DNA of 64,000 nucleotides from Hemitrygon akajei (GCF_048418815.1 NC_133154.1:260043-324042), one strand, 5' to 3'. Numbered from the stretch's first letter, positions 19,270-61,189 are shown. Notes: generated by a model not told the origin, from the letters alone. Numbers and translations are program-made.

Positions 19270-19800
19270 AAACCTAATTTACAGTTTTCTGGTAGGTAGG
19301 TGGCCAAACCTGCACACAATAACAAAGAAGAGAAAATATGCAGATGCTGGAAATCTTTCCAACCAACATCCCATGCAGGACCTTGTCAAGGGCCTTGCTA
19401 AAGTCCAAATAACACCTACTTCCTTCCTTCATCCAGTTTCCTGGTAACGTTTTTCAAAAACTCTCTAAGACTGGTTAGACACAACCTACCACGCACAAAG
19501 CCATGCTGACTATCTCTAATTAGTCCATATTTATCAAAATACTTATATATCTGGTCCCTTAATTACCTTCCAACAACTTTCCCATTATTGGTGTCAGGCT
19601 CAGCAGCCTATAATTTCCTGGTTTATTTATAGAGCTTTTCTTAAACAGTGGAACAACATTAGCTATCCTCCAATTCTCCAGTACCTCATTTGACACTAAG
19701 GATGATTTAAATATTTCTGCTAGGGCCCAGCAAATTCTGCACTTTCCTACCACAGGGTCCAAGGGAACACCTCGGACCCTGTGGGTTGTCAGGAATCTTT
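19270..19800 (-). mobile_element. CR1-like LINE RT N-terminal fragment
   Basis: Minus ORF 19559-19762: ...AEIFKSSLVSNEVLENWRIANVVPLFKKSSINKPGNYRLLSLTPIMGKLLE. Confidence 0.55.
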
Positions 19801-27420: not shown

Positions 27421-30340
27421 AAGACCATAAAATATAGGAGCAGAAGGAGGCCATTCAGCCCAATGAGTCCACTCCGCCATTCAATCATGGGCTGATCCAA
27501 TCCTTCCAGTCATCCCCACTCCCCTGCCTTCACCCCATACCCTTTGAAGCCCTAGCTGATCAAGAACCTATCTATCTCTGCCTTAAATTCACCCAATGAC
27601 TTGGCCTCCACAGCTGTTCCACAGAGTTACCACTCTCTGACTAAAGTAATTTCTCTGCATCTCTGTTCTACATGGACGTCCTTCAATCCTGAAGTTGTAC
27701 CCTCTTTTGTCCTTGACTCGCCTACCATGGGAAATAACTTTGCCATATCTATTCTGTTCAGGCCTTTTAATTTTCAGAACGTTTCTATGAGATTCCCCCC
27801 TCATTCTCCTGAACTCCTGGGAATACAGTCCATGAGCTGCCAGACATTCCTCATACGGTAACCCTTTCATTCCTGGAATCATTCTCATCAATTTTCTCTG
27901 TACCTTCTCCAATGTTAGTATATACTTTCTAAAATAAGGAGCCCAAAGCTATACACAATACTTCGTGCAGTCTCATGAGTGCCTTATAGAGCCCCAACAT
28001 CACATCCCTGCTCTTATATTCTATACCTCCAAAAATGAATGCCAACGTTGCATTTTCCTTCTTCACAACATGGAAGTTAATCTTTAGGGTATCTTGCACA
28101 AGGACTCCCAAGTCCCTTTGCATCTCTGCATTTTGAATTCTCTCCCCATCTAAATAATAGTCTGCCTGTTTATTTCTTCCATCAAAGTGCATGACCATAC
28201 ACTTTACAAAATTTTATTTCATTTGCCACTTCTTTGCCCATTCCGCTAAACCACTGAAGTCTCTCTGCAGGCTCTCTGTTTCCTCAACACTACCTGCTAA
28301 ATTAGCCACAAATCCATTAATACTGTAGCCCAAATCATTGACATACATCGTAAAAAGCAGTGGTCCCAACACCGATCCCTGTGGAACTCCACTTGTTACC
28401 GGCAGCCAACCAGAATAGGATCCCTTTATTCCTACTCTCTGTTTTCTGCCAACCATCCAATGCTCTACCCATGCCAGTAAATTCTCTGTAATTCCATGGG
28501 CTCTTGTCTTGCTAAGCAGCCTCATGTGCGGCACCTCATCAAAGGCCTTCAGGAAATCCAAGTACACCACTTCTACCACATCTCCTTTGTCTACCGTGCT
28601 TGTAATTTCCTCAAAGAATTGCAGTAGGTTTGTCAGGCAGAATTTTCCTTTCAAGAAACCATGCTGGCTTTGGCCTATCTAGTCATGTGCCTCCAGGTAT
28701 TCTGTAACCTCATCCTTAACAATCAATTCCAACAACTTCCCAGCCACTGATGTCAGGCTAACAGGCCTATAGTTTCCTTTCTGCTGCCTCCCACCAGTAA
28801 AATACCAGTCATCCAGTACAATGCCAAAATCTATCAACTCTTGAAAGATCATTATTAATGCCTCCACAATCTCTCCAGCTACTTCCTTCAGAACCCAAGG
28901 GTGCATTGGATCAGGTCCTGAGCACCTTCTCAGTCGTAATTTTCACTGCACAAACTTCACTTCCCTGACACTCTTGAATGTCTGGTATACTGCAGATGTC
29001 TTCCACTGTGAAGACTGATGCAAAATAAGCATTCAGTTCTTCTGCCATCTCTGCATTTCTCTTTACAATATCTCCACCGTCATTTTGTATTGGTTCTCTA
29101 TCTACCCTCAACTTAGCTTTTACATACTTAAGAAAGCTTTTAGTATCTTCTTTGATATTAGTCACCAGCTTTCTTTCATAATTCATCTTAGTTTCTTAGT
29201 TTCCTTCTGCAAGTTTTTAAAAGCTTCCCAATCCTCTATCTTCCCACTAGCTCTGACTTCCTTGCATGCCCTCTCTTTTGCTTTTACTTTGGCTCTGACT
29301 TCACTTGTCAGTCATGGTAGTGTCCTTCTTCCATCTGAAAATTTCTTCTTATTTGGAATATATCTGTCTTGCACTTCCCTCATTTTTTGCAGAAACTCCA
29401 GTCATTGCTGCTCTGCAGGCTTCCTGCAAGTGTCCCTTTCCAGTCAACTTTGGCCAGTTCCCCTCTCATGCTATTGTAATTTCCTTTATTCCACTGAAAT
29501 ACCGACAATTTGGATTTTATTTTTTTCTCTCTCAAATTTCAATGCGAACTCAGTCATATTAAGTTCAAGCAACCTAGGGATTCCTTAACCTTAAGCTCTC
29601 TTATCACCTCCAGATCATTACACAACACCCAACCCAACAAGCTGTTCTAAAAAGCCATCCCTAAGACATTCTACAAATTATCTTTCTTGAGGTCCAGTAC
29701 TGACCTGGATTTCCCAATCCACTTTCATGTTAAAATCCCCAACAATTATCATGACATTGCCTTTCTGACATGCCTTTTCTATCTCCTGCTGCAATTTGTA
29801 ATCCACATCTTAGCTGCTGTTTGGAGGCCTGTATATAACTGCCATTAGGGTCCTTTTACACTTGCCATTTCTTAACTCAACCGATAGAGACTCTACACTT
29901 TCCAATCCTATGTCAACTCTTTCTAATGATTTAATTTTATTTGTTATACACAGAACAACACCACCCCCACTGCCTACTAACCTATCTTTCCAATACACCA
30001 TATATCCTTGGACATTCAGCTCCCAATGGCAGCCATCCTTCAGCCAAGTTTCAGAGATGGTCACAATGTCATATTTGCCACTCTGTATCTGCATTTCAAG
30101 ATTGTCCATTTTATTTCTTATGCAGCGTGCATTCAAAAATAACACTTTCAGTCCAGTATTTGTTGCTTTCTGTTTTAACTGCCCCACACCTCTATTGTAA
30201 CCCATGCCACTGGCTGTGTTTAAGCTTCGTCTCCTGCTGTTCTTTCTATCATATCTGTTGCGTGCTATCTTTGATTTATTTCTGTTTTCCCCTTCCTCAA
30301 TCCTATCACTCTGGTTCTTACCCCCTGCCAAATTAGTTTA
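27420..30340 (-). mobile_element. CR1-like LINE, nearly complete ORF2 (endonuclease N-terminus through 3' tail, ~2.9 kb; interrupted by frameshifts)
   Basis: Minus ORFs 29810-30331 (endonuclease: VLFLNARCIRNKMDNLEMQIQSGKYDIVTISETWLKDG...GGGVVLCI...YRPPNSS), 28911-29186 linker, 28679-28906 and 28214-28654 (RT: FDEVPHMRLLSKTRAHGI..., [19 protein letters not shown]), 27929-28198 and 27589-27912 (tail). Confidence 0.75.
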
Positions 30341-30620
30341 AACCCTCCCTAACAGCTCTATTAGATGTGCCTGCCAGTATATTGGACCCCTTTGTGTTCA
30401 GGTCTATAATCACTCTCTGGTTTCTTCCACAAAGCCAATGTCTAATCCAATTTAGTACCTCATCTTGAACACAGAGTGACTGAACCTTCATAACCAACCT
30501 CCCATGCGGAACCTTGTCAAATGCCTTACTAAAGTCCATGCAGACAATAGCCACTGCCTTGCCTTCATCCACTTTCCTGGTAATGCTTTTCAAAATCTCT
30601 ATAAGATTGATTAGACTTGA
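30340..30620 (-). mobile_element. CR1-like LINE RT fragment (separate copy)
   Basis: Minus ORF 30333-30698: ...KVDEGKAVAIVCMDFSKAFDKVPHGRLVMKVQSLCVQDEVLNWIRHWLCGRNQRVI. Confidence 0.5.
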
Positions 30621-30629
30621 CCTACCATA

Positions 30630-31700
30630 GAAAAATAAAAACATAGAAAACCTACAGCACCATACAGGCCCTTTGGCCCACAAAGCTGTGCCGAACATGT
30701 TCTTACCTTAGAAATTACCTAGGGTTACCCATAGCCCTCTATTTTTCTGAGCTCCATGTACCTGTCCAGGAGTCTCTTAAAAGACCCTATCATATCTGCC
30801 TCCACCACTGTCGCTGGCAGCCCATTCCACACACTCACCAATCTCTGCATAAAAGACCTACCTCCGACAGCTCCCCTGTACATACTTCCAAGCACTTTAA
30901 AACTGTGCCCTCTCGTGCTAGCCATTCCAGCCCTGGGAAAAAGCCTTTGACTATCCACACGATCAATGCTTCTCATCATCTTATACACTTCCATCAGGTC
31001 ACCTCTCATCCTCCGTCACTCCAAGGGAAAAAGGCCGAGTTCACTCAACCTATTCTCATAAGGCATGCTCCCCAATCCAGGCAATGTCCTTGTAAACCTC
31101 CTCCACACCCTTTCTATGGTTTCCACATCCTTCCTGTAGTGAGGCAACCAGAACTGAGCACAGTACTCCAAGTGGGGTCTGACCAGAGTCCTATATAGCT
31201 GTAATATTACCTTTTGGCTCCTAAACTCAATCCCACGATTGATGAAGGACAATGCACCATATGCCTTCTTAACCACAGAGCCAACCTGCACAACAGCTTT
31301 GAGTGTCCTATGGATTTGGACCCCAAGATCCCGCTGATCCTCCACACTGCCAAGAGTCTTACCATTAATACTACAAATGTTTGTACATTCTGCACGCACA
31401 AAGCCATGCTGACTATCCTTAATCAGTCTATAGCTATCCAAATACTTATATATCCAGCCCCTTAGAATACCTTCCAATAACTTTCCCATTACTGATGTCA
31501 GATTGTGACATTGGCCTACAGTGTACTGCTTTATGTTTACATCCGTTCTTTAACAGTGGAACAACAATGTCTATCCTGCAATCTGCTGGTACTTCTCCTG
31601 TCACTAAGGATGATTTAAATATCTCTGTTAGGGCCCTGGGAATTTCTGCACTTGCCTCCGTAGGGTCCAAGGGAACACATTGTCATGCCCTGGGGATTTA
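30630..31700 (-). mobile_element. CR1-like LINE, internally deleted (3' terminus with (CATAGAAA)-type repeats to RT start)
   Basis: Minus ORFs 30725-31009, 31016-31489 (…[27 protein letters not shown]…) and 31446-31670 (…TEIFKSSLVTGEVPADCRIDIVVPLLKNG…). Terminus aaaacatagaaaacctacagcac at 30636-30660. Confidence 0.6.
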
Positions 31701-31734
31701 TCCACACTGATTTGCCTCAGGATAGCAAACAACA

Positions 31735-34700
31735 GTTGTCATGGGAGATTTTAACTTCTACATAGATTGGGTGAATCAGGCAACACACACAAAATGCTGG
31801 TGGAACGCAGCAGACCCGGCAGCATCTATAGGAAGAAGTACAGTCATCATTTCAGGCCGAGACCCTTCGTCAGGACTAACTGAAAGAAAAGATAGTAAGA
31901 GATTTGAAAGTGGGAGGGGGAGGGGAAGATCCAAAATGATGGGAGAAGACAGGAGGGGGAGGGATGAAGCTAAGAGCTGGAAAGTTGATTGGCAAAAGGG
32001 ATACAGAGCTGGAGAAGGCAAAGGATCATGGGATGGGAGGCCTAGGGAGAAAGAAAGGGGGAGGGGAGCACCAGAAGGAGATGGAGAGCAGGCAAGGAGT
32101 GATGGTGAGAGGGACAGAGAGAGAAAAAAAGAGGGGGGAGTAAATAAATAAATAAATAAATAAGGGATGGGGTAAGAAGGGGAGGAGGGGCATTAATGGA
32201 AATTAGAGAAACCATCAGGTTGGAGGCTACCCAGCCGGTATATAAGGTGTTGCTCATCTAACCTGAGTGTGGCTTCATCTCGACAATAGAGGAGGCCATG
32301 GATGGACATATCAGAATGGAAATGGGACATGGAATTAAAATGTGAGACCACTGGGAGATCCGGCTTTCTCTGCCAGACAGAGTGCAGGTGTTCAGCGAAA
32401 CGGTCTCCTAGTCTGCCTCAGGTCTCACCAATATATAGAAGGCCACACCGGGGGCACCGGACACAGTATATCACACCAGGACTCACAGGTGAAGTGTTAC
32501 CACACCTGGAAGGACTGTCTGGGGCCCTGAATGGTGGTGAATGAGGAAGTGTAAGGGCAGGTGTAGCACTTGCTCCGCTTACAAGGATAAGTGCCGGGAG
32601 GGAGATTGGTGGGAAGGGATGGGGGGGACGAATGGACAAGGGAGTCACGCAGGGAGTGATCCCTGCGGAAAGCAGAAAGAGGGGGGAGGAGAAAGATGTG
32701 CTTGGTGGTGGGATCCCGTTGGAGGTGGCGGAAGTTACAGAGAATTATATATTGGACCTGGAGGAAGGTGGGGTGGTAGGTGAGGACAAGGGGAACCCTA
32801 TCCCTAGTGGGGTGGCTGGAGGATGGGGTGTGCAGATGTGTGTGAAATGAGACAGATGTGTTTGAGAGCAGAGTTGATGGTGGAGGAAGGGAAGCCCCTT
32901 TCTTTAAAAAAGGAAGACATCTCCTTCGTCCTGGAATAAAAAGCCTCATCCTGAGAGCAGATGCGGCAGAGACGGAGGAATTGCGAGAAGGGGGTGGCAT
33001 TTTTGCAAGAGACAGGGTGGGAAGAGGAATAGTCCAGGTAGCTGTGAGTCTGTAGTAGACATCAGTAGATAAGCTGTCTCCAGAGATAGAGACAGAAAGA
33101 TCAAGAAAGGGGAGGGAGGTGTCAGATGTGGACCAGATAAATTTGAGGGCAGGGTGAAAGTTGGAGCCAAATTTAATGAAGTCAACGAGCTCAGCATGCG
33201 TGCAGGAAGCAGCGCTAATGCAGTCATTAATGTAGCAAGGGAAAAGTGGGGGACAGATACCAGTATAGGCTTGGAACATGGACTGTTCCACAAAGCCAAC
33301 ACAAAGGCAGGCATAGCTGGGACCCATACTGGTGCCCATGGCTACACCTTTAGTTTGGAGAAAGTTGGGAGGAGCCAAAGGAGAAATTATTAAGCGTGAG
33401 GACTAATTCCGCTAGACGGAGGACAGTGGTGGTACAGGTTAGGTCTGGTACAACTGGTCTGGTACAACTGGTTAGGTCTGGTTAGGTTAGGTACAACTGG
33501 TTAGGTCTGGAATCCAAAAAGAAGCGGAGAGCTTTGAGACCTTCCTGGTGGGGGATGGAGGTATATAGAGACTAGACATCCATGGTGAAAATAAGGCATT
33601 GGGGGCCGGGGAACTTAAAATCATTGAAAAAATTCAGTGCGTGAGAAGTGTCACCAAGATAGGTGGGAAGGGATTGAACGGGGGGAGGGGAATAAAACAG
33701 TGTTGAGGTATGCAGAAGTGAGTTTGGTGGGGCAGGAGCAAGCTGAGACAATGGGTCCACTTGGAGAGGCAGGTTTGTGGATCTTGGGTAGGAGGTAGAA
33801 ATGGAAAGTGCGGGGTGTGGGAACTATGAGGTTGGTGGCAGTGGAGGGGAGATCCCCAGAGCTGATAAGGTTGGTGATGGTGTGGGAGACAATGGCTTGG
33901 TGCCACACATTTTAATTCCATGTCCCATTCCCATTCTGATATGTCAATCCAGGGCCTCCTCTACTGTCAAGTGTGGCCTTCTATATATCGGTGAGACCCA
34001 ATGCAGACTGGGAGACCATTTCGCTGAAAACCTACGCTCGGACTGCCAGAGAAAGCAGGATCTCCCAGAGGCCACACATTTTAATTCCATGTCCCAATCC
34101 TATTCTGATATGTCAATCCATGGCCTACTGTAAAAATGAAACCACATTCAGGTTAGAGGAACAACACCTTATATTCCGTCTGGGTAGCCTCCAACCTGAT
34201 GGCATGAATATTGATTTCTCTAACTTCCGTTAATGCCCCTCCTCCCCTTCTTACCCCATCCCTTACTTATTTATTTGTTTATTTTTATTTTATTCGCTCT
34301 CTGTCCCTCTCACAATCACTCCTTACCTGCTCTCCATCTTCCTCTGGTGGTCCCCTCCCCCTTTCTTTCTCCCTGGGCCTCCCATCCCATGATTCTCCCA
34401 CTTCTCCAGCTCTGTATCCCTTTTGCCAATCAACTTTCCAGCTCTTAGCTTCATCCCTCCCCCTCCTGTCTTCTCCCATCATTTTGGATCTTCCCCTCCC
34501 CCTCCCACTTTCAAATCTCTTACTATCTCTTCTTTCAGTTAGTCCTGACAAAGGGTCTCGGCCTGAAACATTGACTGTACTTCTTCCTAAAAGTGCTGCC
34601 TGGCCAGTTGTGTTCCACCAGCATTTTGTGTCAGTTTCTTGAATTTCCAGCATCTGCAGATCTCTTCGTGTTTGGGTGAATCAGGTTGGTCAAGGAAGTC

Positions 34701-37000
34701 TTGAGGAGGACTTCATAGAATGCATCTGTGATGGCTTTCTTGAGCAGCATGTTAGTGAACCTACAAGGGAAAATGCTATCTTAGATTTAGTCCTGTGCAA
34801 TGAGACAGGTAAGATTAACGATCTTATAGTCAGGGATCCTCTTGGAAAGAGTGATCATAATATGATTGAATTTTGCTTACAGATGTTGGATGAAATAGTT
34901 AGATCTAAAACTAGTATATTGAATAAGGGAGACTACAACAGGATACAGGAGGAGTTGGCTAATGTGGATTGGGAGCACAGGCTATTTGGTAGGACAGTTG
35001 AGGAACAGTGGAATACTTCCAAAGAGATTTTTCACAGTGCTCAACAAAAGTATATTCCAGTCAAAATTAAGGAAAGTAAGTGTGAGGAGAGGCAGCCTTG
35101 GATAACTAAGGAAATAAAAGATAGTATCAAATTAAAAGCTCATGTGTACAAAGTCACAAAGAGTAGTGGGAAACTGGGGGATTTGGAAAACTTTAAAAAG
35201 CAACAGAGAACAACTAAACAAGAAATAATGAAAGGGAAGATAGAGTATGAAAATAAATTAGCACAAAATATAAAAACAGATAACAAAAGTTTTTATAAAT
35301 ATATAAAGCAGAAGAGGGTGGCTAAAATCAACATAGGTCCCTTGGAAGATGAGAAGGGAAAATTAATATTGGGTGATAAGGAAATGGCTGAGGCACTGAA
35401 TGACTATATTGTGTCGGTCTTCATGGAGGAGGACACATCTAATATTCCAAAGAAGGATGTTATGGATGAAATGGGAGGTGAGGACCTCAATAAAATCACT
35501 GTCACTAAAGAGACAGTGATGAGCAAACTAGAGGGCCTGAAGGTAGATAAGTATCCTGGTCCTGATGGGGTGCATCCCAGGGTGCTGAAGGAATTGGCGG
35601 AGGTTATAGTAGATGTGTTGGTAACCATTTACCAAAATTCTCTAGACTCTGGGCAGGACCCGGCGGATTGGAAGACAACAAATGCCACACTACTTTTAGA
35701 AAAAGGATGGAGGCAAAAGACGGGCAACTATAGGCCAGTTAGCTAACATCTGTAGTCAGGAAAATGCTTGAAGCTGTCATTAAGGAAGAAATAGTGAAAC
35801 ATTTAGAAAGGAGTGGTTCCATTAGACAGATGCAGCATGGATTCAGAAAGGGCAGGTCCTGCTTGACAAACTTATTGGAGTTCTTTGAGGACATAATGAG
35901 TGCAGTGGATAGAAGGGAACAGGTGGATGTTGTATACTTGGATTTCCAGAAGGCATTCGATAAGGTGCCGCTCAAGAGACTTATAAATAAGATACGGATG
36001 CATGGAGTCGGAGGAAGTGCATTAGCGGATTGTGGATCGGAGGATAGTGGATTGGTTAACCAATAGAAGGCAGAGAGTTGGTATAAATGGGTGTTTCTCC
36101 AGTTGACAGTCAGTTGTGAGTGGGGTGCCTCAGGGGTTGATGCTGGACCTGCTTTACATTGATGATTTGGAAGAGGGGGCTGAGTGTAGCGTAACAAAAT
36201 TTGCTGATGACACTAAACTGAGTGGAAAAGAAAATTGTACAGAGGATGTGGAGAGTCTGCAGAGAGATATAGATAGGTTAAATGAGTGGGCCAAGGTCTG
36301 GCAGATGTAATACAACTTTGGTAAATGGGAGATCATCCACTTTGGAACGAATAATAGAAGAACGGAATATTATTTAAATGGTGAAAGAATGCAGCATGCT
36401 GTTGTGCAGAGGGACTTGGGTGTGCTTGTTCATGAATCACAAAAAGTTGGCTTGCAGGTACAACAGGTTATTAAGAAAGCAAACGGAATGTTGGCCTTCA
36501 TTGCTAGAGGGATTGAATTCAAGAGCAGGGAGGTTATGCTGCAACTATACAGGGTTCTGGTGAGGCCGCACCTGGAGTACTGCGTGCAGTTCTGGTCTCC
36601 ATACTTGAGGAAGGATATACTGGCTTTGGAGGCAGTGCAGAGGAGGTTAACCAGGTTGATTCCAGAGATGAAGGGGTTAACCTATGAGAAGAGATCAAGT
36701 CACCTGGTACTATACTCTCTGGAGTTCAGAAGAATGACAGGGGATCTCATAGAAACATACAAAATTTTGAAAGGGATAGATAAGACAGAAGTAGGAAAGT
36801 TGTTTCCATTGGTAGGTGAGACTAGAACTAGAGGACATTGCCTCAAGATTCAGGGGAGAAGATTTAGGACGGAGATGAAGAGAAACTGTTTTTCTCACAG
36901 AGTGGTGAATCTGTGGAATTCTCTGCCCAGGGAAGCAGTTGAGGCTTCCTCACCAAATATATTTAAGATACAGTAAGATATGTTTTTACATAGTAAGGGA
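31735..37000 (+). mobile_element. CR1-like LINE (endonuclease GDFN motif through 3' end) split by a PLE insertion; CR1 parts are 31735-31787 and 34664-37000
   Basis: Joining 31741-31787 to 34664 onward restores MGDFNFYIDWVNQ|VGQGSLEEDFIECICDGFLEQHVSEPTRENAILDLVLCNE...SDHNMIEF. Downstream ORFs 34676-35746 (356 aa, linker into RT: GLKVDKYPGPDGVHPRVLKE...NYRPVS), 35764-36066 (QHGFRKGRSCLTNLLEFFED...FQKAFDKVP), 36116-36310 (KFADDTK) and 36389-36976 (195 aa tail: [20 protein letters not shown]...RFRTEMKRNCFSHRVVNLWNSLP). Confidence 0.75.
31775..34663 (-). mobile_element. Penelope-like element (PLE; Neptune/Poseidon-type) with inverted pseudo-LTRs of about 650 bp, decayed RT and GIY-YIG endonuclease; flanked by 13-bp target site duplication TTGGGTGAATCAG
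   Basis: Minus ORF 33651-33908 (YLLPKIHKPASPSGPIVSACSCPTKLTSAYLNTVL) and 32497-33378 (FLQTKGVAMGTSMGPSYACLCVGFVEQ...CYINDCISAASCTHAELVDFIKFGSNFHPALKFIWSTSDTSLPFLDLSV) give RT motifs. 32418-32648 continuing to ~32270 reads ...VIYCVRCPRCGLLYIGETxGRLGDRFAEHLHSV...HFNSMSH..DMSIHGL, a GIY-YIG domain. 31785-32420 is the reverse complement of 33900-34650, and a second inverted partial GIY-YIG copy lies at 33950-34140 (plus). The 13-mer ttgggtgaatcag is present at both borders. Confidence 0.75.
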
Positions 37001-37009
37001 ATTAGGGGT

Positions 37010-38400
37010 TATGGGGAAAAGGCAGGTAGATGGAGATGTGCTCGTGGACAGATCAGCCATGATCTTATTGAATGGCGGGGCAGGCTCAATGGGCCAGATG
37101 GCCTACTCCTGCTCCTATTTCTTATGTCCTTATCTATGTACTCCTGCTCTGTAATCTGTACAGGGTCCATGAAATTGATGCTGCTTTGCCTCACTTCTAT
37201 AGACTCTGTATCCATCTCCTGAGTAAATACAAATGCAAAAAAAATATCTAAGATCTTTCCCATCTCTTTTGGCTCCACATATGTATTACCATTCTGATCT
37301 TCCAGGGAACCAATTTTGTCCCTTGTATTCCATTTGTCCTTAACATATCTGTAGAACCCCTGAGGTTCTCCTTCACCTTGTCTGCTTGAACAACTTCATG
37401 CCTTCTTTTAGCCCTCCTGATTTCTTTCTTAAGTGTTCTCTTGCATTTCCTGTACTCCATAAGCAACTCATTTGCTCCCACCTGCCTATACCTGCTATGC
37501 ACCTTTTTAATCTTAACCAGGGCCTCAATATCTCTTGAAAACCAAGGCTGCCCACACTAGTTATCTTTATTCTGACAGCCACATCCAAGCTTTGTATTCT
37601 CAAAATTTCACTTTTTAAGGCCTCCCACTTACCAAGTACAACTTTGTCAGAAAACAGCCTGTCCCAATACACACACTGCCAGATCCTTTCTGAGACCATC
37701 AAAATTGGCCTTTCTCCAATTTAGAATCTCAGTCCACGGAACAGACCTATCTTTACCCATATTTACTTTAAAACTAAGGCACTATGGTCACTAGATGCAA
37801 AGTGTTGCCCTACACAAATTTCTGTCACCTCCCTGTCTCATTCCCCAATAGCAGATCAAGTATCACACACTCTCTCATTGCAACTTCTATGTACTGAAGG
37901 AGGAAATTTTCCTGAACATATTTGTCACACTATCCCAGCTAGTCCTTTTACAGTATGGGATTCCCAGTCAGTGTGTGGAAAGTTAAAATCACCTACTTTA
38001 ACAACCATATGTTTCTGACAACAAGTCTTCAAATTTGCTCCTCTAAATCCTTAGGACTGCTGGGTGGTCTGCAATATGGCCCCACTAACATTGTCATACC
38101 TTTCTTATTTCTCAGTTCCACCCATAACACCTCACGAGAAGAGATCTCCCATCTGTCCTGACAGAGCACTGCTGTGACATTTTCCCTGACTAGTAATGCC
38201 AGCCCTCTTCCTTTAACCCCTCCTGCCATGTCGCATCTAAAACCCTGGAATACTGAGCTGCCAGTTCTGTTCCTCCTACAACCAAGTCTCACTAATGGCC
38301 ACAATGTCATAATTCCAGGTCTTCATCCAGGCCCTAAGCTCATCCACCTTTCCTACGATACTTCTTGCGTTGAAATATGGAAGAAGGAGCTGGTGGGGTG
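37010..38400 (-). mobile_element. CR1-like LINE 5' part of ORF2 (endonuclease domain plus linker), 3' truncated
   Basis: Minus ORFs 38029-38310 (GRGLALLVRENVTAVLCQDRWEISSREVLWVELRNKKGMTMLVGPYCRPPSS), 37373-37702, 37248-37502 (KKEIRRAKRRHEV...KENLRG) and 37009-37278. Confidence 0.6.
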
Positions 38401-40440
38401 GGGGGGTAAAACTACAATGTTTAAAAGACAGATGACTGCATTGGAAAGAATCATGGGGTTATGAAGCAGTGGCAGGGGATGGTGTCATAGGCAGCAGTGT
38501 AAGGGGATAGAGAGACAGAGAGTGCATAGAGATTCAAGAAGGTCACAGAGATGAGGCGGAGAGTAGGGAGTGAGAGTTTCAGAGAAATGGGCAGGGGTGA
38601 TGAGTTGGGAAGAATAGGGGGTTAGACAGGGCTTCACTGAGAAAGGGAGAAGAGTAGAGGGTCAGAGAGAAGGAGAGTGGTGTAGATGCCAGACAAGGTC
38701 ACACAGATGAGGAGGGGAGTGGGAAGAGAGGGGTTTAGAGAAATGGCCAGGAGTATAGAGTAGGGAGGGAGTGATAGAGACATGGAGGGATATAGAGAAA
38801 GAAGCAAATCATACACATGAAGGAGTGTAGGGAAGACAGGGAGGGTCATAGAGATGGGAAAGGAGGGTCGGTGTTGGACCTCGGGGAAGAGTGTAGTAGA
38901 GGGAAGGGTGATGGAGATGGAGAGAAAGGGTTTGACAGAGTCAGGGTGGGATGTAGGGGAGGGAGGGGTGACGGAGATGGGGAGGAGAGTAGGGGATGGA
39001 GGGGATAATGCTGAAGGGAAGAGGAGTAGAGGAGGAAGGGGGTGATAGAGACAGGGAGGGTTGTAGGGGATGGAAGGGATGATGGAGACTGGTAGGGAGG
39101 GTTGATGGAGATATGGAGGGAGGGGTAGAAGATAAGGAAGGGTATAGGAGAGGGAGGGGTGGCAGAAACAGAGGGGAGTAGGTGATGGAAGTGAGTACAG
39201 AGACGAGGAGTGGTGTAGAGGAGGGTGGCACTGATGGAGACAAGGAAGGGGGTGACAGAGATGGGGGGTGATGGAGATGAGGAGGGAAGGGGTGATGGAG
39301 ATGGGGAGGGCTGTATGCAAGTGAGGGGATGATGGAGACGGGGAGAGGGGATGGAGGGGCTGAAGGGAAAGGATGTTTGGGGGGGAGGCGGGGATGGGTG
39401 TGGAATGGGAGGGACAACAGACACAGGGAGGGGAGGAAGTGGGTGACAGAGACAGAAATGGTGTAGGGGAGGGAGGAGGTGACAGAGACATGAGGGGTGT
39501 AGGGAAGGGAGGGGGTGACAGATGGTGAGGGGTCCAGGCATGGGAGGGGATAATGGAGACAGGGAGGGGATTAAGGGAGGGAGGGAGTAACAGAGATGAG
39601 AAGTGGTGTAGTGGAGGGAGAGGGTGATGGAAACAGGGAAGGGTGTAGGGGAACAAGGGGGTAAGGGAGGTGTATAGGGAGGAAGTGACAGAGGTGTGTA
39701 GGAGAGCGTGAGTACGACAGGGAGGTGTGTAGGGGAGGGAGGGATGTTGGCGAAGATGGGGAGAGGTGTAGAGTAGGAAGGGGTGACAGAGACGGATGAG
39801 GAGGAGTGACGGGATAGGGAGGGAGGGTTGGGAGACGAAAGGCTATGGGGAGGAAGTGGGTGGTGGAGACAGGTAGAGGAGTAGGTGATGGAGGTGATTA
39901 CGGAATCAGGAAGGGGTGTAGGGGAGGGAAGGGGTGAGAGGAAGTTACATAGGGGAGGGAGGGGGTGGTGGAGATGGAGAGGGGTGTATTGGAGGGATGG
40001 GATGACGGAGACGAGGAGGGAGCGGGTAATGATGGGGAGGCCTGTAGGGGAATGAGGGGCTGATGGAGACAAGGAGGGGAGAGCCAGAAATGACAGAGTT
40101 GGGGAGGGGTGTTGGGGAGAGAGTGGTGAAGGAGACAGGGGGGAGTGAAGGGAATGGAGGAGGTGATGGGGAAGGGTGTACTGGAGAGGGGTTAGATGGG
40201 AAGGGGTGCAGCGAGGGATGGTGTGAGTCACAGGAAGGGAGGGGGTGACAGAGATAGGAGGGTGAAGGGGTGGGAGGGGGTGACTGAGACTAGGAATGGT
40301 GTAGAGGAACGAGTGGATGACAGAGATGGAAGAGGTGATGGAGACGGGGAGGGTTGTAGGGGAGGGAGGAGGTGACAGAGATGTGGTGCAAGGGAAGGGG
40401 TGATGGAGACAGAGAGTGATTGCATAAGCAGATCATTTGA
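38400..40440. repeat. 2-kb GA-rich low-complexity tract (ggtgatggagatggggagggag-like degenerate units)
   Basis: Direct inspection. Source of 340- and 461-aa artefactual minus-strand ORFs (Pro/Ser/Leu-rich). Confidence 0.7.
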
Positions 40441-55059: not shown

Positions 55060-56400
55060 ATTTGATGGCTCTGGGCCTGTATTTGCTGGAGTTTAGAAGA
55101 ATGGGGTTGGGGTGGATCTTATTGAAGTCTATCTAATATTGAAAGGCCTAGATTAGAGTGAAGGTATAGAGAATGTTTTTATCAGTGGGGGAGTCCAGGA
55201 CCAGATGACATAGCCTCAAATAGTAAAACATCCCTTTAGAACAGAGATGAGGAGGAATTTCTTTAGCCAGATAATGGTGAATCTGTGGAATTTATTACCA
55301 CAGACTGCTGTAGAGGCCAAGTGATTGATCATATTTAAAACAGAGGTAGGTAAGTTCTTGATTAGTAAGGGTGTCAAAGGTTATTGGGAGAAGGCAGGAG
55401 AATGGTGTTGAGAAGGATAATAGATGATTCTTGGTTGAATGGCGGCTGACTCAGTGGGTCAAATGACCTCATTCTACTCCTCTGTCTTATGGTCTGAAGC
55501 AGGGGTTCCCAATCTGGGGTCCACAGACTCCTTGTTTAAGGATATCGTTCCATGGCATAAAAAATGTTCGGGAACCCCTGGACTAAAGAATAGCAATGAA
55601 CAGAAAGACACTGGGATCCAAGTCCACAGCTCCCTGAAAGTGGGAACACAGGATAATTGGGTGGTAAAGAAGCCGTATGGCATAGTTGCCATACGGCAGA
55701 CTGGAAGGCATAGGTGGTGGTGTGGTTCTGTTGGTAAGAAATGGAATTACGTCTTTAGAGAGAGGTGACATAGGGTGAAAGAATGTTGAATATTTGTGGG
55801 TGGAGTTAACAAACTGCAAGGGTAAAAAAACTATTATGGGAATCATATATATAGACCTCCAAACATTAGCCAAAATGTGGGGTTGAGATTGCAAAGAAAA
55901 GGCATGTAATAAGGGTAATGTCACAATTATAATGGGAGGACTTCAATATGCAAGGGGATTGGGAAAATCAGGTAGGTGTCAGATTGCAACAGAGGGAATT
56001 TGTTGAATCCCTATGAGATGGCTTTTTAGAGCAACTTGTGCTTGAGACTACTGGGAGAAAGGCTATCTTAGATAGGGTGTTGTGTTATAATCCAGATCCT
56101 ATTAACATATACAAAATGTTGGAGGAACTCAGCAGGCCAGGCAGCATCTATGAAAAAAAGTACAGACAATGTTTCAAGCCGATCTTATTAGGGAGCTTAA
56201 AGGAACCCTTAGGAGACAGTGATCATAATATGATTGAATTCATACTGCAGTTTGAAAGGGAGAAGCTCACATGTATCTGTATCGCAATGGAATAACAGGA
56301 ATTACATAGGCAAGAGAGAAGAGCTTGCCAAGGTGGATTGGAGGAGGATACAGGCAGAGATGACGGCAGAGCAGAGATGGCGAAGTTTCTTGGAATAGTT
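55060..56400 (+). mobile_element. CR1-like LINE fragments: 3' tail piece (55060-55500) and endonuclease-domain piece (55500-56400) carrying an 88-bp PLE-terminus-derived insert
   Basis: Tail: …GLYLLEFRRMG…FFSQIMVNLWNLLPQTAVEAK. Endonuclease: …YRPPN…GDFN-region…LEQLVLETTGRKAILDRVLCYNPDP[insert]GSLKEPLGDSDHNMIEF. Confidence 0.55.
56098..56185. mobile_element. 88-bp PLE-terminus-derived mini-element (half-hairpin) inserted in a CR1 endonuclease domain
   Basis: acatatacaaaatgttggaggaactcagcaggccaggcagcatctatgaaaaaaagtacagacaatgtttcaagccgatcttattagg matches the PLE terminal sequence at 31785-31890 and interrupts the reading frame of the host LINE. Confidence 0.55.
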
Positions 56401-59232: not shown

Positions 59233-59684
59233 TCTTATCTGTTTTCACTGTGGAAGACACTAGCGGTGTGCCAGAGGTCTGTGAGTGTCAGGGAGCAGGG
59301 GTGAGTGCCATTGCTATTACAAAGGAAAAAGTGCTAGGCAAACCGAAAGGTCTTATGGTGGATAAGTCACCTGGACCAGAAGGACTACATCCTAGAGTCC
59401 TGAAAAAAGTTGAAGAGATAATGGCTGCATTGGTCATGATCTTTCAAGAATCATTTTATTCTGATATGGTCCTGGAGGACTGGAAAATTACAAATGTCCC
59501 TCCACTCTTTAAAAAGAAAAGAAGGTAAAAGAAAGGAAACTATAAGCCAGTTAGCCTAACCTCAGCGGTTAGAAAAGTGTTGAAGTATATTATTAAGGAT
59601 GAGGTTTTGGGGTACTTGGAGATTAATAATAAAATAAGTCAAAGTCAGCATGGTTTTTGTAAAAAGAAATCTTGCCTGATAAAC

Positions 59685-59820
59685 TCAGCAGATCGGGCAG
59701 CATCTGTGGAAACGAACGCGGATGACTGTTCGTTTCCACAGATGCTGCCTGACCTGCTGAGTTCCTCCAGCTTGTTGTATGTGTTGCTTTGACCCCAGCA
59801 TCTTCAGCGTACTTTGTGTT
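59685..59820. mobile_element. PLE-terminus-derived hairpin element (short perfect stem gcagcatctgtggaaacgaacg / cgttcgtttccacagatgctgc) inserted in the CR1 RT domain
   Basis: gcagatcgggcagcatctgtggaaacgaacgcggatgactgttcgtttccacagatgctgcctgacctgctgagttcctccagcttgttgtatgtgttgc, followed by the PLE tail-like tttgaccccagcatcttcagcg. Confidence 0.55.
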
Positions 59821-60516
59821 GCCTGATAAATCTGTTGGGGGTTCTTCGAGGAAGTAACAAGCAGGGTGGACAAAGGAGAGACAGTGAATGTCACTTACTT
59901 GGACTTCCAGAAGGCATTTGATAAGGTGCTACACATGAGGTAGCTTAAGAAGATAAAATCCTATAGTGTTACAGGAAAAATACTGGCATGGATGGAGGAA
60001 TGGCTGACAAGCAGGAGGTAGCAAGTGGGAATAAAAGAGGCCTTTTATGGTTGGCTGCTCCTGTCTACTGGTGTTACTCAGGGGTCAGTATAGGAACTGC
60101 TACTTTTCACATTGTTTGTCAATTATTTAGATAGTGGAATTGATGGCTTTGTGGCAAAGCTTGATGATGATACAAAGATAGCTTGAGTGGTAGATAGTGC
60201 AGAGAAAGCAATGCAATTGCAGCAGGACTTAGACAAATTGGAAGAATGGGCAAAAAAGTGGCAGATAGAATATAGTGTTGGGAAATGTATGATAATACAT
60301 TCTGGTAAAAGTAATCATAGTGTGAATTATTATTTAAATGGGGAAAAGGTCAAACATCAGAGGTTCAGAGGGACTTAGGAGTCCTCGTGTAAAACACCCT
60401 GAAGGTTAATTTACAGGTTGAGTCTGTGGTAAAGAAGGCAAATGCAATGTTGGCACTTATTTCAAGGGGAATAGAATACAAAAGCAAGGAGATAATGCTG
60501 AGCAACACACACAAAT

Positions 60517-60840
60517 TGCTGGAGGAACTCAGCAAACCAGACAGCATCTATGGAAAAGAGTACAGTCAACATTTTGGGCTGAGACCCTTTAACAGGTCCA
60601 GAACTACAGGGCACAGCCTCAAAATTGAAGGACAACCTTTTAGAACAAAAGTAAGGAGAATTTTTTTTTTACCCAGAGAGTAGTGAATCTGTGGAATGTT
60701 TTGCCGCAGGTCCTGCTGAAGGGTCTCAGCCCGAAATGCCAACTGTACTCTTTTCCATAGATGCTGCCTAGCCTACTGAGTTCGTCCAGCGTTTTGTGTG
60801 TGTTGCTTGTATTTCCAGCATCTGCAGATTTTCTCTTGTT
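60517..60840. mobile_element. PLE-terminus-derived inverted-repeat element: ~90-bp arms (60517-60605 and 60708-60800) around a ~100-bp CR1-tail-like spacer, plus PLE tail (60800-60840)
   Basis: Right arm is the reverse complement of the left arm (acacacaaattgctggaggaactcagcaaaccagacagcatctatggaaaagagtacagtcaacattttgggctgagaccctttaacaggtcc). The spacer encodes GHSLKIEGQPFRTKVRRIFF..RVVNLWNVLPQ. Confidence 0.55.
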
Positions 60841-61189
60841 TGAGATAATGCTGAGCCTTTGTAAGACACTAGTCAGGCTGCACATGGAGTATTGTCAACA
60901 TTTTTGGGCCCCATATCTCAGGAAGGATGTGTTGTCATTGGAGAAAATCCAGAGTAGATCCACAAGATTCTGGGACATATGAACAGTGCATATATTTAAG
61001 GCGGAAGTTGACGTTTTCCTGATCAGTCAGAGCTTCAAAGGATATGGCAAGAAGGCAGGTGTATGGGATCAGCCATGATGGGATAGCAGAGCAGACTCAA
61101 TGGGCTGAATGGCCTAATTCTGCTTTCATTGGACAGCTAATTGAGTCTAAGGGTTGGCCTTGACTATATTTCAAAAATATGAAACATCC

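What the first reader, a model, noticed from the sequence alone, without database searches (positions are those of the whole stretch)
31735..37000. Penelope-like element with inverted pseudo-LTRs and GIY-YIG domain nested in a CR1 endonuclease domain, with a clean 13-bp TSD
Removing 31788-34663 and one copy of TTGGGTGAATCAG restores an uninterrupted CR1 endonuclease reading frame (GDFNFYIDWVNQVGQGSLEED…), which defines the insertion precisely. The insert has the PLE hallmarks: RT motifs, a YINDC catalytic-site variant, a C-terminal GIY-YIG (CGLLYIGET…RLGDRFAEHL…HFNS), about 650-bp inverted terminal repeats that include a second partial GIY-YIG copy, and a short tandem repeat (ggttaggtctggtacaact) inside the RT region. 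It gives a well-resolved example of PLE integration and its TSD length.
Basis: partly seen in the sequence, partly recalled or inferred. Interest (0 to 1): 0.6.

Follow-up and report, generated by a model that had tools for sequence, protein, structure and literature searches.

The report
Dead Penelope-like retrotransposon inside a CR1-like LINE
This is an ordinary, long-dead copy of a Penelope-like jumping gene that landed inside another jumping gene (a CR1-like LINE) in a ray or shark genome; its anatomy is clean but matches what is already published for this class.

Summary
A 2,892-bp insert (31780-34671) is flanked by an exact 13-bp duplication, TTGGGTGAATCAG. Removing it restores a LINE endonuclease reading frame that is continuous in three paralogous copies in the window and in homologous proteins.

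The insert is an endonuclease-bearing Penelope-like element (PLE), with its sense strand on the minus strand. It comprises:
- a 5'-truncated RT / Cys-linker / GIY-YIG / 3'UTR copy (33901 to 31780);
- a second, inverted, 5'-truncated copy (33902-34671) joined head-to-head to it.

These give the ~670-bp inverted arms (87-90% identical). I also found a decayed minimal hammerhead ribozyme in each arm and the PLE "tail" (33 nt), present at one end only.

- its coordinates are 8 bp off on each side;
- YINDC is a decayed RYIDDC, not a variant;
- the tandem repeat is a private ~51-bp expansion;
- Pfam does not reach threshold on this copy, although intact homologues do.

The linker motif points to the Neptune/Nematis type, not Poseidon. 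Inverted truncated copies, one-sided tails, variable TSDs and pLTR hammerheads are all described in the literature. Nothing here is new, so interest is low.

The parts
31735..31779 (+). Host CR1-like LINE ORF2, endonuclease GDFN motif (VVMGDFNFYIDWVNQ). The host copy is 5'-truncated about here.
31767..31779 (.). Target-site duplication, copy 1 (TTGGGTGAATCAG)
31780..33901 (-). Sense PLE copy, 5'-truncated. It corresponds to residues ~251-800 of an 806-aa full-length homologue and runs RT, linker, GIY-YIG, 3'UTR, hammerhead, terminus without tail. It is dead: 3 in-frame stops, at least 5 frameshifts, and deletions of 10 and 12 bp.
31780..31840 (-). PLE 3' terminal region ending ...GTGTGTGTTGC (proximal terminus, no tail)
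31841..31879 (-). Minimal hammerhead ribozyme motif, decayed: UUAGUC-CUGACGA-A-GGGUCUCGGCCU-GAAAUGAU-GACUG (family consensus GAAACGUC)
31880..32192 (-). 3'UTR / pLTR-equivalent region, C-rich and of low complexity
32193..32474 (-). GIY-YIG endonuclease domain with Cys residues between GIY and YIG (VIYCVRCPRCGLLYIGET...RFAEHL...HFNS...E...N). The stop codon is at 32193-32195.
32557..32583 (-). CX4CxxC Zn-finger-like linker (CKRSKCYTC), a Neptune/Nematis-type trait
32584..33901 (-). Reverse transcriptase core and thumb region. LPKIHK at 33774-33791, FTMDV at 33575-33589, and decayed catalytic CYINDC at 33220-33234 (family RYIDDC).
33442..33510 (.). Private tandem expansion (14-nt period) inside the RT, an insertion of ~51 bp relative to Mobula copies
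33902..33970 (+). Short extra copy of the EN segment (HFNSMSH..LLYC). It is a direct duplicate of 34071-34132, consistent with a 169-nt backward template jump. It meets the sense copy head-to-head with a 2-nt GC overlap.
33971..34638 (+). Second, inverted, 5'-truncated PLE copy (EN C-terminal part, 3'UTR, hammerhead at 34539-34577, terminus). This is the right inverted arm.
34639..34671 (+). 33-nt PLE 'tail' (TTGAATTTCCAGCATCTGCAGATCTCTTCGTGT), present at this end only
   Evidence: literature
34672..34684 (.). Target-site duplication, copy 2
34672..37133 (+). Rest of the host CR1-like LINE: EN SDH motif, RT (RVT_1 hit), C-terminal region, and a 3' end carrying two octamer-like TCTTATG(G) units. 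It is itself degenerate.

Best explanation
One retrotransposition event placed an endonuclease-bearing, Neptune-like Penelope-like element into the endonuclease-coding part of an already 5'-truncated CR1-like LINE copy, in an elasmobranch genome that is probably a ray.

Shown:
- the insert boundaries;
- the 13-bp TSD;
- the restored host frame;
- two inverted 5'-truncated copies whose 3' termini both point outward;
- a 33-nt tail on one end only;
- a conserved minimal hammerhead motif;
- heavy decay of the copy.

Inferred mechanism:
1. The GIY-YIG nuclease nicked both target strands about 13 bp apart.
2. Each exposed 3'-OH primed reverse transcription near the 3' end of PLE RNA. One priming used the distal start site, which includes the tail. 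The other used the proximal start site, which does not.
3. One cDNA stopped after ~2.1 kb. The other stopped after ~0.7 kb, following a 169-nt backward template jump.
4. The two cDNAs were joined head-to-head at a 2-nt microhomology.
5. Fill-in of the staggered nicks produced the TSD.

After insertion the copy decayed through CpG transitions, stops, frameshifts, YIDD to YIND, and a 51-bp slippage expansion. It has no function now.
For: Boundaries, TSD and frame restoration.

Empty site. Paralogues at 55939(+), 29749(-) and 57328(-) are continuous across the site. So are homologous ORF2 proteins that carry Exo_endo_phos domains, for example P0128 with VVMGDFNL-HIDWSNQIARGSLEE.

PLE identity.
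- There are 623 homologues; the closest are from Mobula hypostoma (84%) and Hypanus sabinus, and full-length 800-900-aa ORFs are ~50% identical.
- Of the 31 aligned sequences, 27 match RVT_1 and 25 match GIY-YIG.
- Identity to the curated, biochemically characterised Poseidon_Ac is 26% over 325 aa across the RT (E=1e-23), and the GIY-YIG core also aligns.

Order RT, linker, EN on the minus strand.

Inverted arms.

Tail. Family termini occur in two forms, with and without the ~33-nt extension, in this window and in Mobula loci.

Hammerhead. CUGAYGA-A-GGG....CYC-GAAACGUC is conserved from rays to sharks to an unrelated ENA assembly, where it sits at both ends of a full-length element in inverted orientation. 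Helix II pairs in 100% of cells, helix I shows CG<->UA and UA<->CG double changes, and 85% of cells pair against 21-46% for the slid controls.

Literature.
- Inverted 5'-truncated copy and one-sided 30-40-bp tail: PMC8557442 and PMC3846280.
- Purified PLE protein cleaves and extends both strands and initiates at two adjacent internal sites that define the tail: PMC11167929.
- Minimal hammerheads in PLE repeats: PMC4209133.
Against: Pfam does not reach its gathering scores on this copy, either as raw ORFs or stitched.

Rfam finds no hammerhead. Both window hammerhead copies have mutated cores or cleavage sites, so the motif rests on family comparison. With 9 sequences the shuffle control is not significant (90/500).

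The arms differ by 10-13%. This is compatible with one event followed by decay, but does not prove a single template.

Priming on both strands is inferred from anatomy and an in vitro study of a different PLE clade. It was not observed here.

No orthologous empty site could be examined.
Confidence: 0.85

Rival explanations
1. Two separate insertions. A 5'-truncated PLE inserted first. A second 5'-truncated copy of the same family later inserted in opposite orientation exactly at its 5' junction, since PLEs tend to home into their own sequences.
For: PLE protein in vitro targets its own ORF-pLTR junction. The arms differ by 10-13%. This PLE family has hit the window repeatedly.
Against: A single perfect 13-bp TSD brackets the whole composite, and no second TSD flanks either part. 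The arms are closer to each other (87-90%) than to the Mobula copies (80-84%). The same inverted, one-tail architecture recurs at 60503-60841 and 59684-59820 within single TSDs and is described as typical.
Confidence: 0.08
2. Snap-back (self-primed) cDNA. A single first-strand cDNA folded back on itself and copied itself, creating the inverted repeat.
For: Self-priming was proposed for PLE inverted repeats with palindromic junctions. The small insertion at 59684-59820 looks exactly like this, with arms separated by a 10-nt loop.
Against: Here the two arms are separated by about 1.5 kb of unique RT sequence (32449-33970), and the junction is not palindromic. A fold-back would copy the sequence adjacent to the turn, not the distal 3' end. 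Both outer ends are bona fide PLE 3' termini, one with and one without the tail.
Confidence: 0.04
3. Assembly or recombination artefact. The inverted junction was created by mis-assembly of PLE repeats or by later ectopic recombination between inverted copies.
For: Complex PLE tandem and inverted structures are known to cause assembly problems.
Against: Both outer junctions are clean and share a TSD that restores the host frame. The inner junction includes a structured 66-nt duplication with microhomology, which is typical of reverse-transcriptase template jumps.
Confidence: 0.03

Closest known systems
Neptune-clade endonuclease-containing Penelope-like elements (Arkhipova 2006; Craig et al. 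2021, PMC8557442)
   Same: [quoted passage not shown] Also shared: the conserved R/H/E/N positions, an inverted 5'-truncated copy, a one-sided 30-40-bp tail, a hammerhead in the terminal repeat, and a vertebrate (fish) host.
   Different: Clade placement rests on the linker motif only. No phylogeny against named Neptune or Nematis references was possible. This copy is truncated and dead.
Poseidon_Ac (PAc) of Anolis carolinensis, Penelope/Poseidon clade (Frangieh et al. 2024, PMC11167929)
   Same: Homologous RT (26% identity over 325 aa, E=1e-23) and GIY-YIG core. The hammerhead ends in GAAACGUC. Two alternative 3' termini differ by a ~30-40-nt tail. Both-strand cleavage and extension explains the inverted arms.
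   Different: PAc lacks the CX4CxxC linker. It is found mostly as direct tandems and is active. The window element is a distant relative and inactive.
Pen2a_Av / Pen2 of Adineta vaga (Arkhipova et al. 2013, PMC3846280)
   Same: The insert is bounded by inverted pLTRs, carries a 31-bp tail on one of them, has a short TSD (9-10 bp) and is nested inside a non-LTR retrotransposon. Capture of unrelated sequence between solo pLTRs also occurs, as at 60597-60709 here.
   Different: Different clade and host. The A. vaga elements also keep a direct pLTR and a full ORF.
L1 twin priming (5'-inverted L1 insertions)
   Same: It works similarly: both target DNA ends prime cDNA synthesis and the two cDNAs are joined head-to-head by microhomology.
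   Different: In L1 the second primer anneals internally on the same RNA, so the two segments are non-overlapping. Here both arms start at the element's 3' terminus and duplicate the same ~670 bp.

Membership tests
Penelope-like elements (canonical EN+) | RT homologous to PLE reverse transcriptases (motifs 1-7 plus thumb) | tested here: met
   BLASTP to curated Poseidon_Ac gives E=1e-23 and 26% identity over 325 aa. There are 623 homologues. Of 31 aligned sequences, 27 hit RVT_1. This copy alone is below the Pfam cut-off (20-21 bits against 29.6).
Penelope-like elements (canonical EN+) | C-terminal GIY-YIG endonuclease in the same ORF, with the CCHH motif (two Cys between GIY and YIG) | tested here: met
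   VIYCVRCPRCGLLYIGET..RFAEHL..HFNS lies downstream of the RT on the same strand. C470, C473, Y466, Y477, G479, R488, H492, H508, E537 and N553 are invariant or near-invariant in the family. Of 31 aligned sequences, 25 hit GIY-YIG. This copy gives E=0.003, below the cut-off.
Penelope-like elements (canonical EN+) | Pseudo-LTRs from partial tandem copies, and/or an adjacent inverted 5'-truncated copy | tested here: met
   The inverted 5'-truncated copy is present, with arms at 31776-32448 and 33971-34642. No direct pLTR is present, because the sense copy is itself 5'-truncated.
Penelope-like elements (canonical EN+) | Optional 30-40-bp 'tail' extension at one end | tested here: met
   A 33-nt extension at 34639-34671 is absent from the left arm. 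The same two terminus forms occur in other window copies and in Mobula loci.
Penelope-like elements (canonical EN+) | Hammerhead ribozyme motif in the terminal repeat | tested here: inconclusive
   The family consensus fits the published min-HHR descriptor: CUGANGA, an extra nucleotide after A9, G10.1-C/U11.1, GAAA, palindromic ACGU, and a GUC cleavage site. It is conserved across rays, sharks and an ENA assembly. Rfam models do not detect it.
Penelope-like elements (canonical EN+) | Short TSD of variable length | tested here: met
   The TSD is 13 bp here. Other insertions of the same family in the window have TSDs of 14, 10-12 and 10 bp.
Neptune clade of PLEs | CX2-5CxxC Zn-finger-like linker between RT and EN | tested here: met
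   CKRSKCYTC lies at 32557-32583(-). C427, C432 and C435 are invariant in 31 aligned sequences. The criterion comes from PMC8557442.
Neptune clade of PLEs | Phylogenetic grouping of the RT with named Neptune references, as opposed to Nematis | not testable with these tools
   No named Neptune or Nematis reference sequences were available.
Penelope/Poseidon clade of PLEs | No Zn-finger linker upstream of GIY-YIG; close RT similarity to Penelope/Poseidon references | tested here: not met
   The linker is present here and absent in Poseidon_Ac. RT identity is only 26%.
CR1 clade LINE (host element) | APE-type (Exo_endo_phos) endonuclease followed by RT in ORF2 | tested here: met
   The GDFN and SDH motifs flank the insertion site. 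Homologues carry PF03372/PF14529 and PF00078. RVT_1 is found at 35764-36066 with 35.2 bits.
CR1 clade LINE (host element) | 3' end without poly(A), with a hairpin and an octamer microsatellite | tested here: inconclusive
   Copies in the window end in two 8-mer-like units..TCTTATGGTCTTATG, with no poly(A). The criterion is described for amniote CR1. The hairpin was not analysed.
CR1 clade LINE (host element) | Phylogenetic placement within CR1 rather than L2, Rex1 or another related clade | not tested
   No named reference sequences were available. CR1 is reported as the dominant LINE in elasmobranch genomes.

The most novel reading that the evidence does not exclude
Four or five independent insertions of this PLE family's last 30-140 nt occur in the 64-kb window. 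They are hairpin-like, tail-only, single-arm, or carry a captured CR1 fragment between inverted termini, and most have their own TSDs. This could mean that in this ray genome the terminal module (hammerhead plus terminal stem plus tail) is mobilised in trans as a very abundant non-autonomous, retrozyme- or SINE-like element. If so, the consistent 'tail on one end only' pattern would be in vivo evidence for the dual-strand, dual-start-site priming so far shown only in vitro for an Anolis Poseidon element.
Probability: 0.25. Interest if true: 0.35.

Novelty: already known. Interest (0 to 1): 0.13.

Why it matters
It matters little beyond annotation. It is a clean natural example of the known PLE insertion architecture in a cartilaginous fish: head-to-head truncated copies, a tail at one end, and a 13-bp TSD. 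That anatomy agrees with the recent in vitro model in which a PLE protein nicks and extends both target strands from two adjacent start sites. It also shows that Rfam hammerhead models and Pfam thresholds miss decayed PLEs, so such copies have to be recognised through homologues.

Tried and rejected
- Rfam cmscan at E<=1 on 31000-35500 and at E<=10 on 34400-34700 found no hammerhead, only chance hits such as mir-103 and Rothia-sucC. PLE min-HHRs have no helix III of their own, which would explain the miss. I therefore identified the motif by comparison with the published descriptor and across loci.
- Pfam on the raw ORF fragments of the insert gave nothing relevant. The stitched protein gave only sub-threshold hits.
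- A PDB sequence search with a full-length homologue returned no hit.
- An MFE fold of the hammerhead region recovers helices I and II but adds a non-native pairing, so it is not informative for a dimer-type ribozyme.
- The look-up of P0001's locus failed.
- I considered whether YINDC could be a real catalytic variant and rejected it. R205, I207, D208 and D209 are at least 90% conserved in the family, and the nucleotide changes from the Mobula sequence (CGC to TGC, ATCGAC to ATTAAT) are all transitions, mostly at CpG sites.
- I considered whether the tandem repeat is a family feature and rejected it, because it is absent from the Mobula copy that covers this region (L001).
- No other PLE coding copy exists in the window.


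Full report
**Observation**

The window is eukaryotic DNA rich in LINE fragments, with 46.5% GC. TTGGGTGAATCAG occurs exactly twice, at 31767-31779 and 34672-34684 (family D11). The 2,892 bp between the two copies (31780-34671) form the insert. Deleting the insert and one repeat copy gives an uninterrupted frame, MGDFNFYIDWVNQVGQGSLEEDFIECICDGFLEQ.... Both insert boundaries are fixed independently by family termini, so the chance that the two flanking 13-mers match is about 4^-13. The TSD edge is uncertain by 1-2 nt.

**Empty site**

The source genome could not be searched, so I used paralogues and homologues.
- Three other LINE copies in the window read straight through the site. They are 55939(+) with DFNMQGDWENQVG..FVESL.DGFLEQ, 29749(-) with IIVGDFNMKVDWEIQVSTGPQER.FVECLRDGFLEQ, and 57328(-).
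- Homologous ORF2 proteins from sharks, rays and reptiles align across the junction without a gap. They carry Pfam Exo_endo_phos domains plus RVT_1. An example is Pristiophorus P0128, VVMGDFNL-HIDWSNQIARGSLEEKFIECIRD.

The site lies between the GDFN and SDH motifs of an APE-type endonuclease. The host copy is itself 5'-truncated at about 31730, roughly 40 bp upstream of the insertion. It runs to about 37133, where several window copies end in two octamer-like TCTTATG(G) units with no poly(A). That resembles the CR1 3' signature, and CR1 is the dominant repeat in elasmobranch genomes. CR1 against sister clades was not tested phylogenetically.

**What the insert is**

The PLE sense strand is the minus strand. 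Raw ORF fragments gave no Pfam RT or GIY-YIG hit. Stitching the three frames gives a 556-aa protein, which scores below threshold:
- RVT_1 at E=3e-4 to 6e-4 (20-21 bits, cut-off 29.6);
- GIY-YIG at E=0.003-0.04 (cut-off 22.6).

Homology is decisive:
- There are 623 proteins at E<1e-5, the best at 3.5e-204.
- The closest are from Mobula hypostoma (84%), Hypanus sabinus, Rhincodon and Chiloscyllium.
- Full-length 800-950-aa ORFs are about 50% identical.
- Intact homologues pass the Pfam cut-offs: P0011 scores 32.9 bits on RVT_1 and P0016 scores 25.0 bits on GIY-YIG.
- Of the 31 aligned sequences, 27 match RVT_1 and 25 match GIY-YIG.
- Against the curated, biochemically studied Poseidon_Ac ORF, the stitched protein aligns over 325 aa spanning the RT (26% identity, E=1e-23). 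The GIY-YIG core aligns as well.

An RT followed in the same ORF by a GIY-YIG nuclease is the PLE signature.

**Anatomy, read in the sense direction**

The sense copy starts at 33901. This corresponds to residue ~251 of the 806-aa homologue P0016, so roughly 250 N-terminal residues and the 5' region are missing. It then contains:
- RT: LPKIHK at 33774-33791, FTMDV at 33575-33589, and CYINDC at 33220-33234.
- Linker: CX4CxxC (CKRSKCYTC) at 32557-32583.
- GIY-YIG: 32474 down to the stop codon at 32193.
- 3'UTR: about 310 bp.
- Hammerhead motif: 31879-31841.
- Terminus...GTGTGTGTTGC at 31780.

The right part (33902-34671, sense on the plus strand) is a second copy. It comprises only the last ~700 bp (EN C-terminus, UTR, hammerhead at 34539-34577, terminus) plus a 33-nt extension at 34639-34671 that the left arm lacks. 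Both outer ends of the insert are therefore PLE 3' termini, and the two truncated 5' ends meet head-to-head at 33901/33902 with a 2-nt GC overlap.

At the inner end of the short copy, 33902-33970 repeats a segment already present at 34071-34132.

- 'YINDC'. The family has near-invariant RYIDDC. Mobula copies read CGC TAC ATC GAC GAC TGC where the window reads TGC TAC ATT AAT GAC TGC. All the changes are transitions, mostly at CpG sites. It is decay, not a variant.
- Tandem repeat. The array at 33442-33510 is an insertion of about 51 bp relative to the Mobula copy that covers this region (L001), so it is private to this copy.
- State of the copy. It has three in-frame stops, at least five frameshifts, and deletions of 10 and 12 bp. 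It is dead.

1. The 33-nt 'tail'. Family termini occur in two forms.
   - With the extension: window 34671, 60841 and 59820; L002 twice.
   - Without the extension: window 31780, 60503 and 56106; L001.

   [quoted passage not shown] Frangieh et al. explain the tail as the stretch between two adjacent internal RT start sites.
2. A minimal hammerhead. The consensus from better-preserved Mobula copies is UUAGUC-CUGACGA-A-GGGUCUCGGCCY-GAAACGUC-GACUG. Nearly the same motif is present downstream of homologous ORFs in Rhincodon and Stegostoma. In an unrelated ENA assembly it sits at both ends of a full-length element, in inverted orientation.
   - It fits the published min-HHR descriptor: an extra nucleotide after A9, a G10.1-C/U11.1 pair, palindromic ACGU and a GUC cleavage site.
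   - On 9 sequences helix II pairs in 100% of cells. Helix I shows CG<->UA and UA<->CG double changes. Overall 85% of cells pair, against 21-46% for the slid controls. The shuffle control is not significant with so few sequences.
   - Rfam finds nothing. PLE min-HHRs lack their own helix III, which would explain the miss.
   - In both window copies the ACGUCG stretch has suffered CpG decay (AUGAUG and ACAUUG), so neither is likely to be functional.

**Clade**

The CX2-5CxxC linker is reported for Neptune and Nematis (and Naiad) and is absent from Penelope/Poseidon. It is present here, invariant in the family and absent from Poseidon_Ac. I therefore call the element Neptune-like. No phylogeny was run.

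**Mechanism**

The architecture is the one drawn as typical for PLEs. The best-supported mechanism is target-primed reverse transcription on both nicked strands, with the nicks about 13 bp apart. One strand initiated at the distal start site and so carries the tail. The other initiated at the proximal start site. Both cDNAs aborted and were joined by microhomology. Purified PAc protein does nick and extend both strands and uses two start sites. This step is inferred here, not shown.

The rivals are less likely:
- A simple snap-back cDNA is unlikely because about 1.5 kb of unique sequence separates the arms and the junction is not palindromic.
- Two independent insertions are unlikely because a single TSD brackets the composite, and the arms are more similar to each other (87-90%) than to the Mobula copies (80-84%).

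**Context**

The same family left several other short insertions in the window; they are itemised with coordinates under Noticed in passing. These show the family was prolific. LINE copies fill much of this window and CR1 covers about a fifth of other elasmobranch genomes, so landing in a CR1-like copy is unremarkable.

**Verdict**

Every feature is already described for PLEs. This is a well-resolved but ordinary, dead, nested transposon, so novelty is 'already known' and interest is low.

Noticed in passing
window 60489-60855: Another insertion of the same PLE family within a different CR1-like copy. Inverted terminal arms lie at 60503-60596 (no tail, truncated inside the hammerhead) and 60710-60841 (with tail), within a 14-bp TSD (GAGATAATGCTGAG). 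Between them is a 113-bp CR1 ORF2 fragment (RTTGHSLKIEGQPFRTKVRRIFFTQRVVNLWNVLPQ). The host copy downstream appears to lack this region: its frame jumps from ..IQSRSTRF to ..IFKAEVDVFL at about 60975-61000. The fragment could be a captured CR1 RNA from template switching or a local rearrangement.
   Followed up: partly
window 59674-59830: A ~137-bp hairpin-like insertion of the PLE terminus. A short inverted arm and a sense arm are separated by a 10-nt loop, the tail is on the right end only, and the TSD is GCCTGATAAA (10-12 bp). It looks like a snap-back cDNA.
   Followed up: partly
window 56104-56182: A single ~70-80-bp antisense fragment of the PLE terminus, from the hammerhead 3' half to the terminus, without tail. 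It lies inside yet another CR1-like endonuclease region, flanked by GATCCTATTA / GATCTTATTA (a 10-bp TSD with one mismatch).
   Followed up: partly
window 19323-19354 (minus strand): A 30-nt match to the PLE tail alone (ATTTCCAGCATCTGCATATTTTCTCTTCTT), at the point where a CR1-like RT reading frame (..FSKALDKVLHGMLVGK) breaks off. No TSD was identified.
   Followed up: partly
window 38634-40416: A G/A-rich degenerate tandem array with ~36-37-nt units (for example 39429-39652, 6 copies, 67% matches). On the minus strand it produces long spurious Pro/Ser/Leu-rich 'ORFs' of 340-461 aa.
   Followed up: no
window 30333-31670 (minus strand): Fragments of another CR1-like LINE in the opposite orientation (RT C-terminal region) abut the 5'-truncated start of the host copy at about 31730. 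This shows dense nesting of LINEs around the finding.
   Followed up: no
window 36003-36052: A short 15-nt tandem repeat (3.3 copies) inside the host LINE's RT region, coinciding with frame disruption.
   Followed up: no
L005 1972(-) and 5056(+): In an unrelated ENA assembly, a full-length 806-aa PLE ORF (50% identical to the window copy) is flanked by identical hammerhead motifs in inverted orientation. The inverted-repeat architecture and this hammerhead type are therefore shared across very distant hosts.
   Followed up: partly
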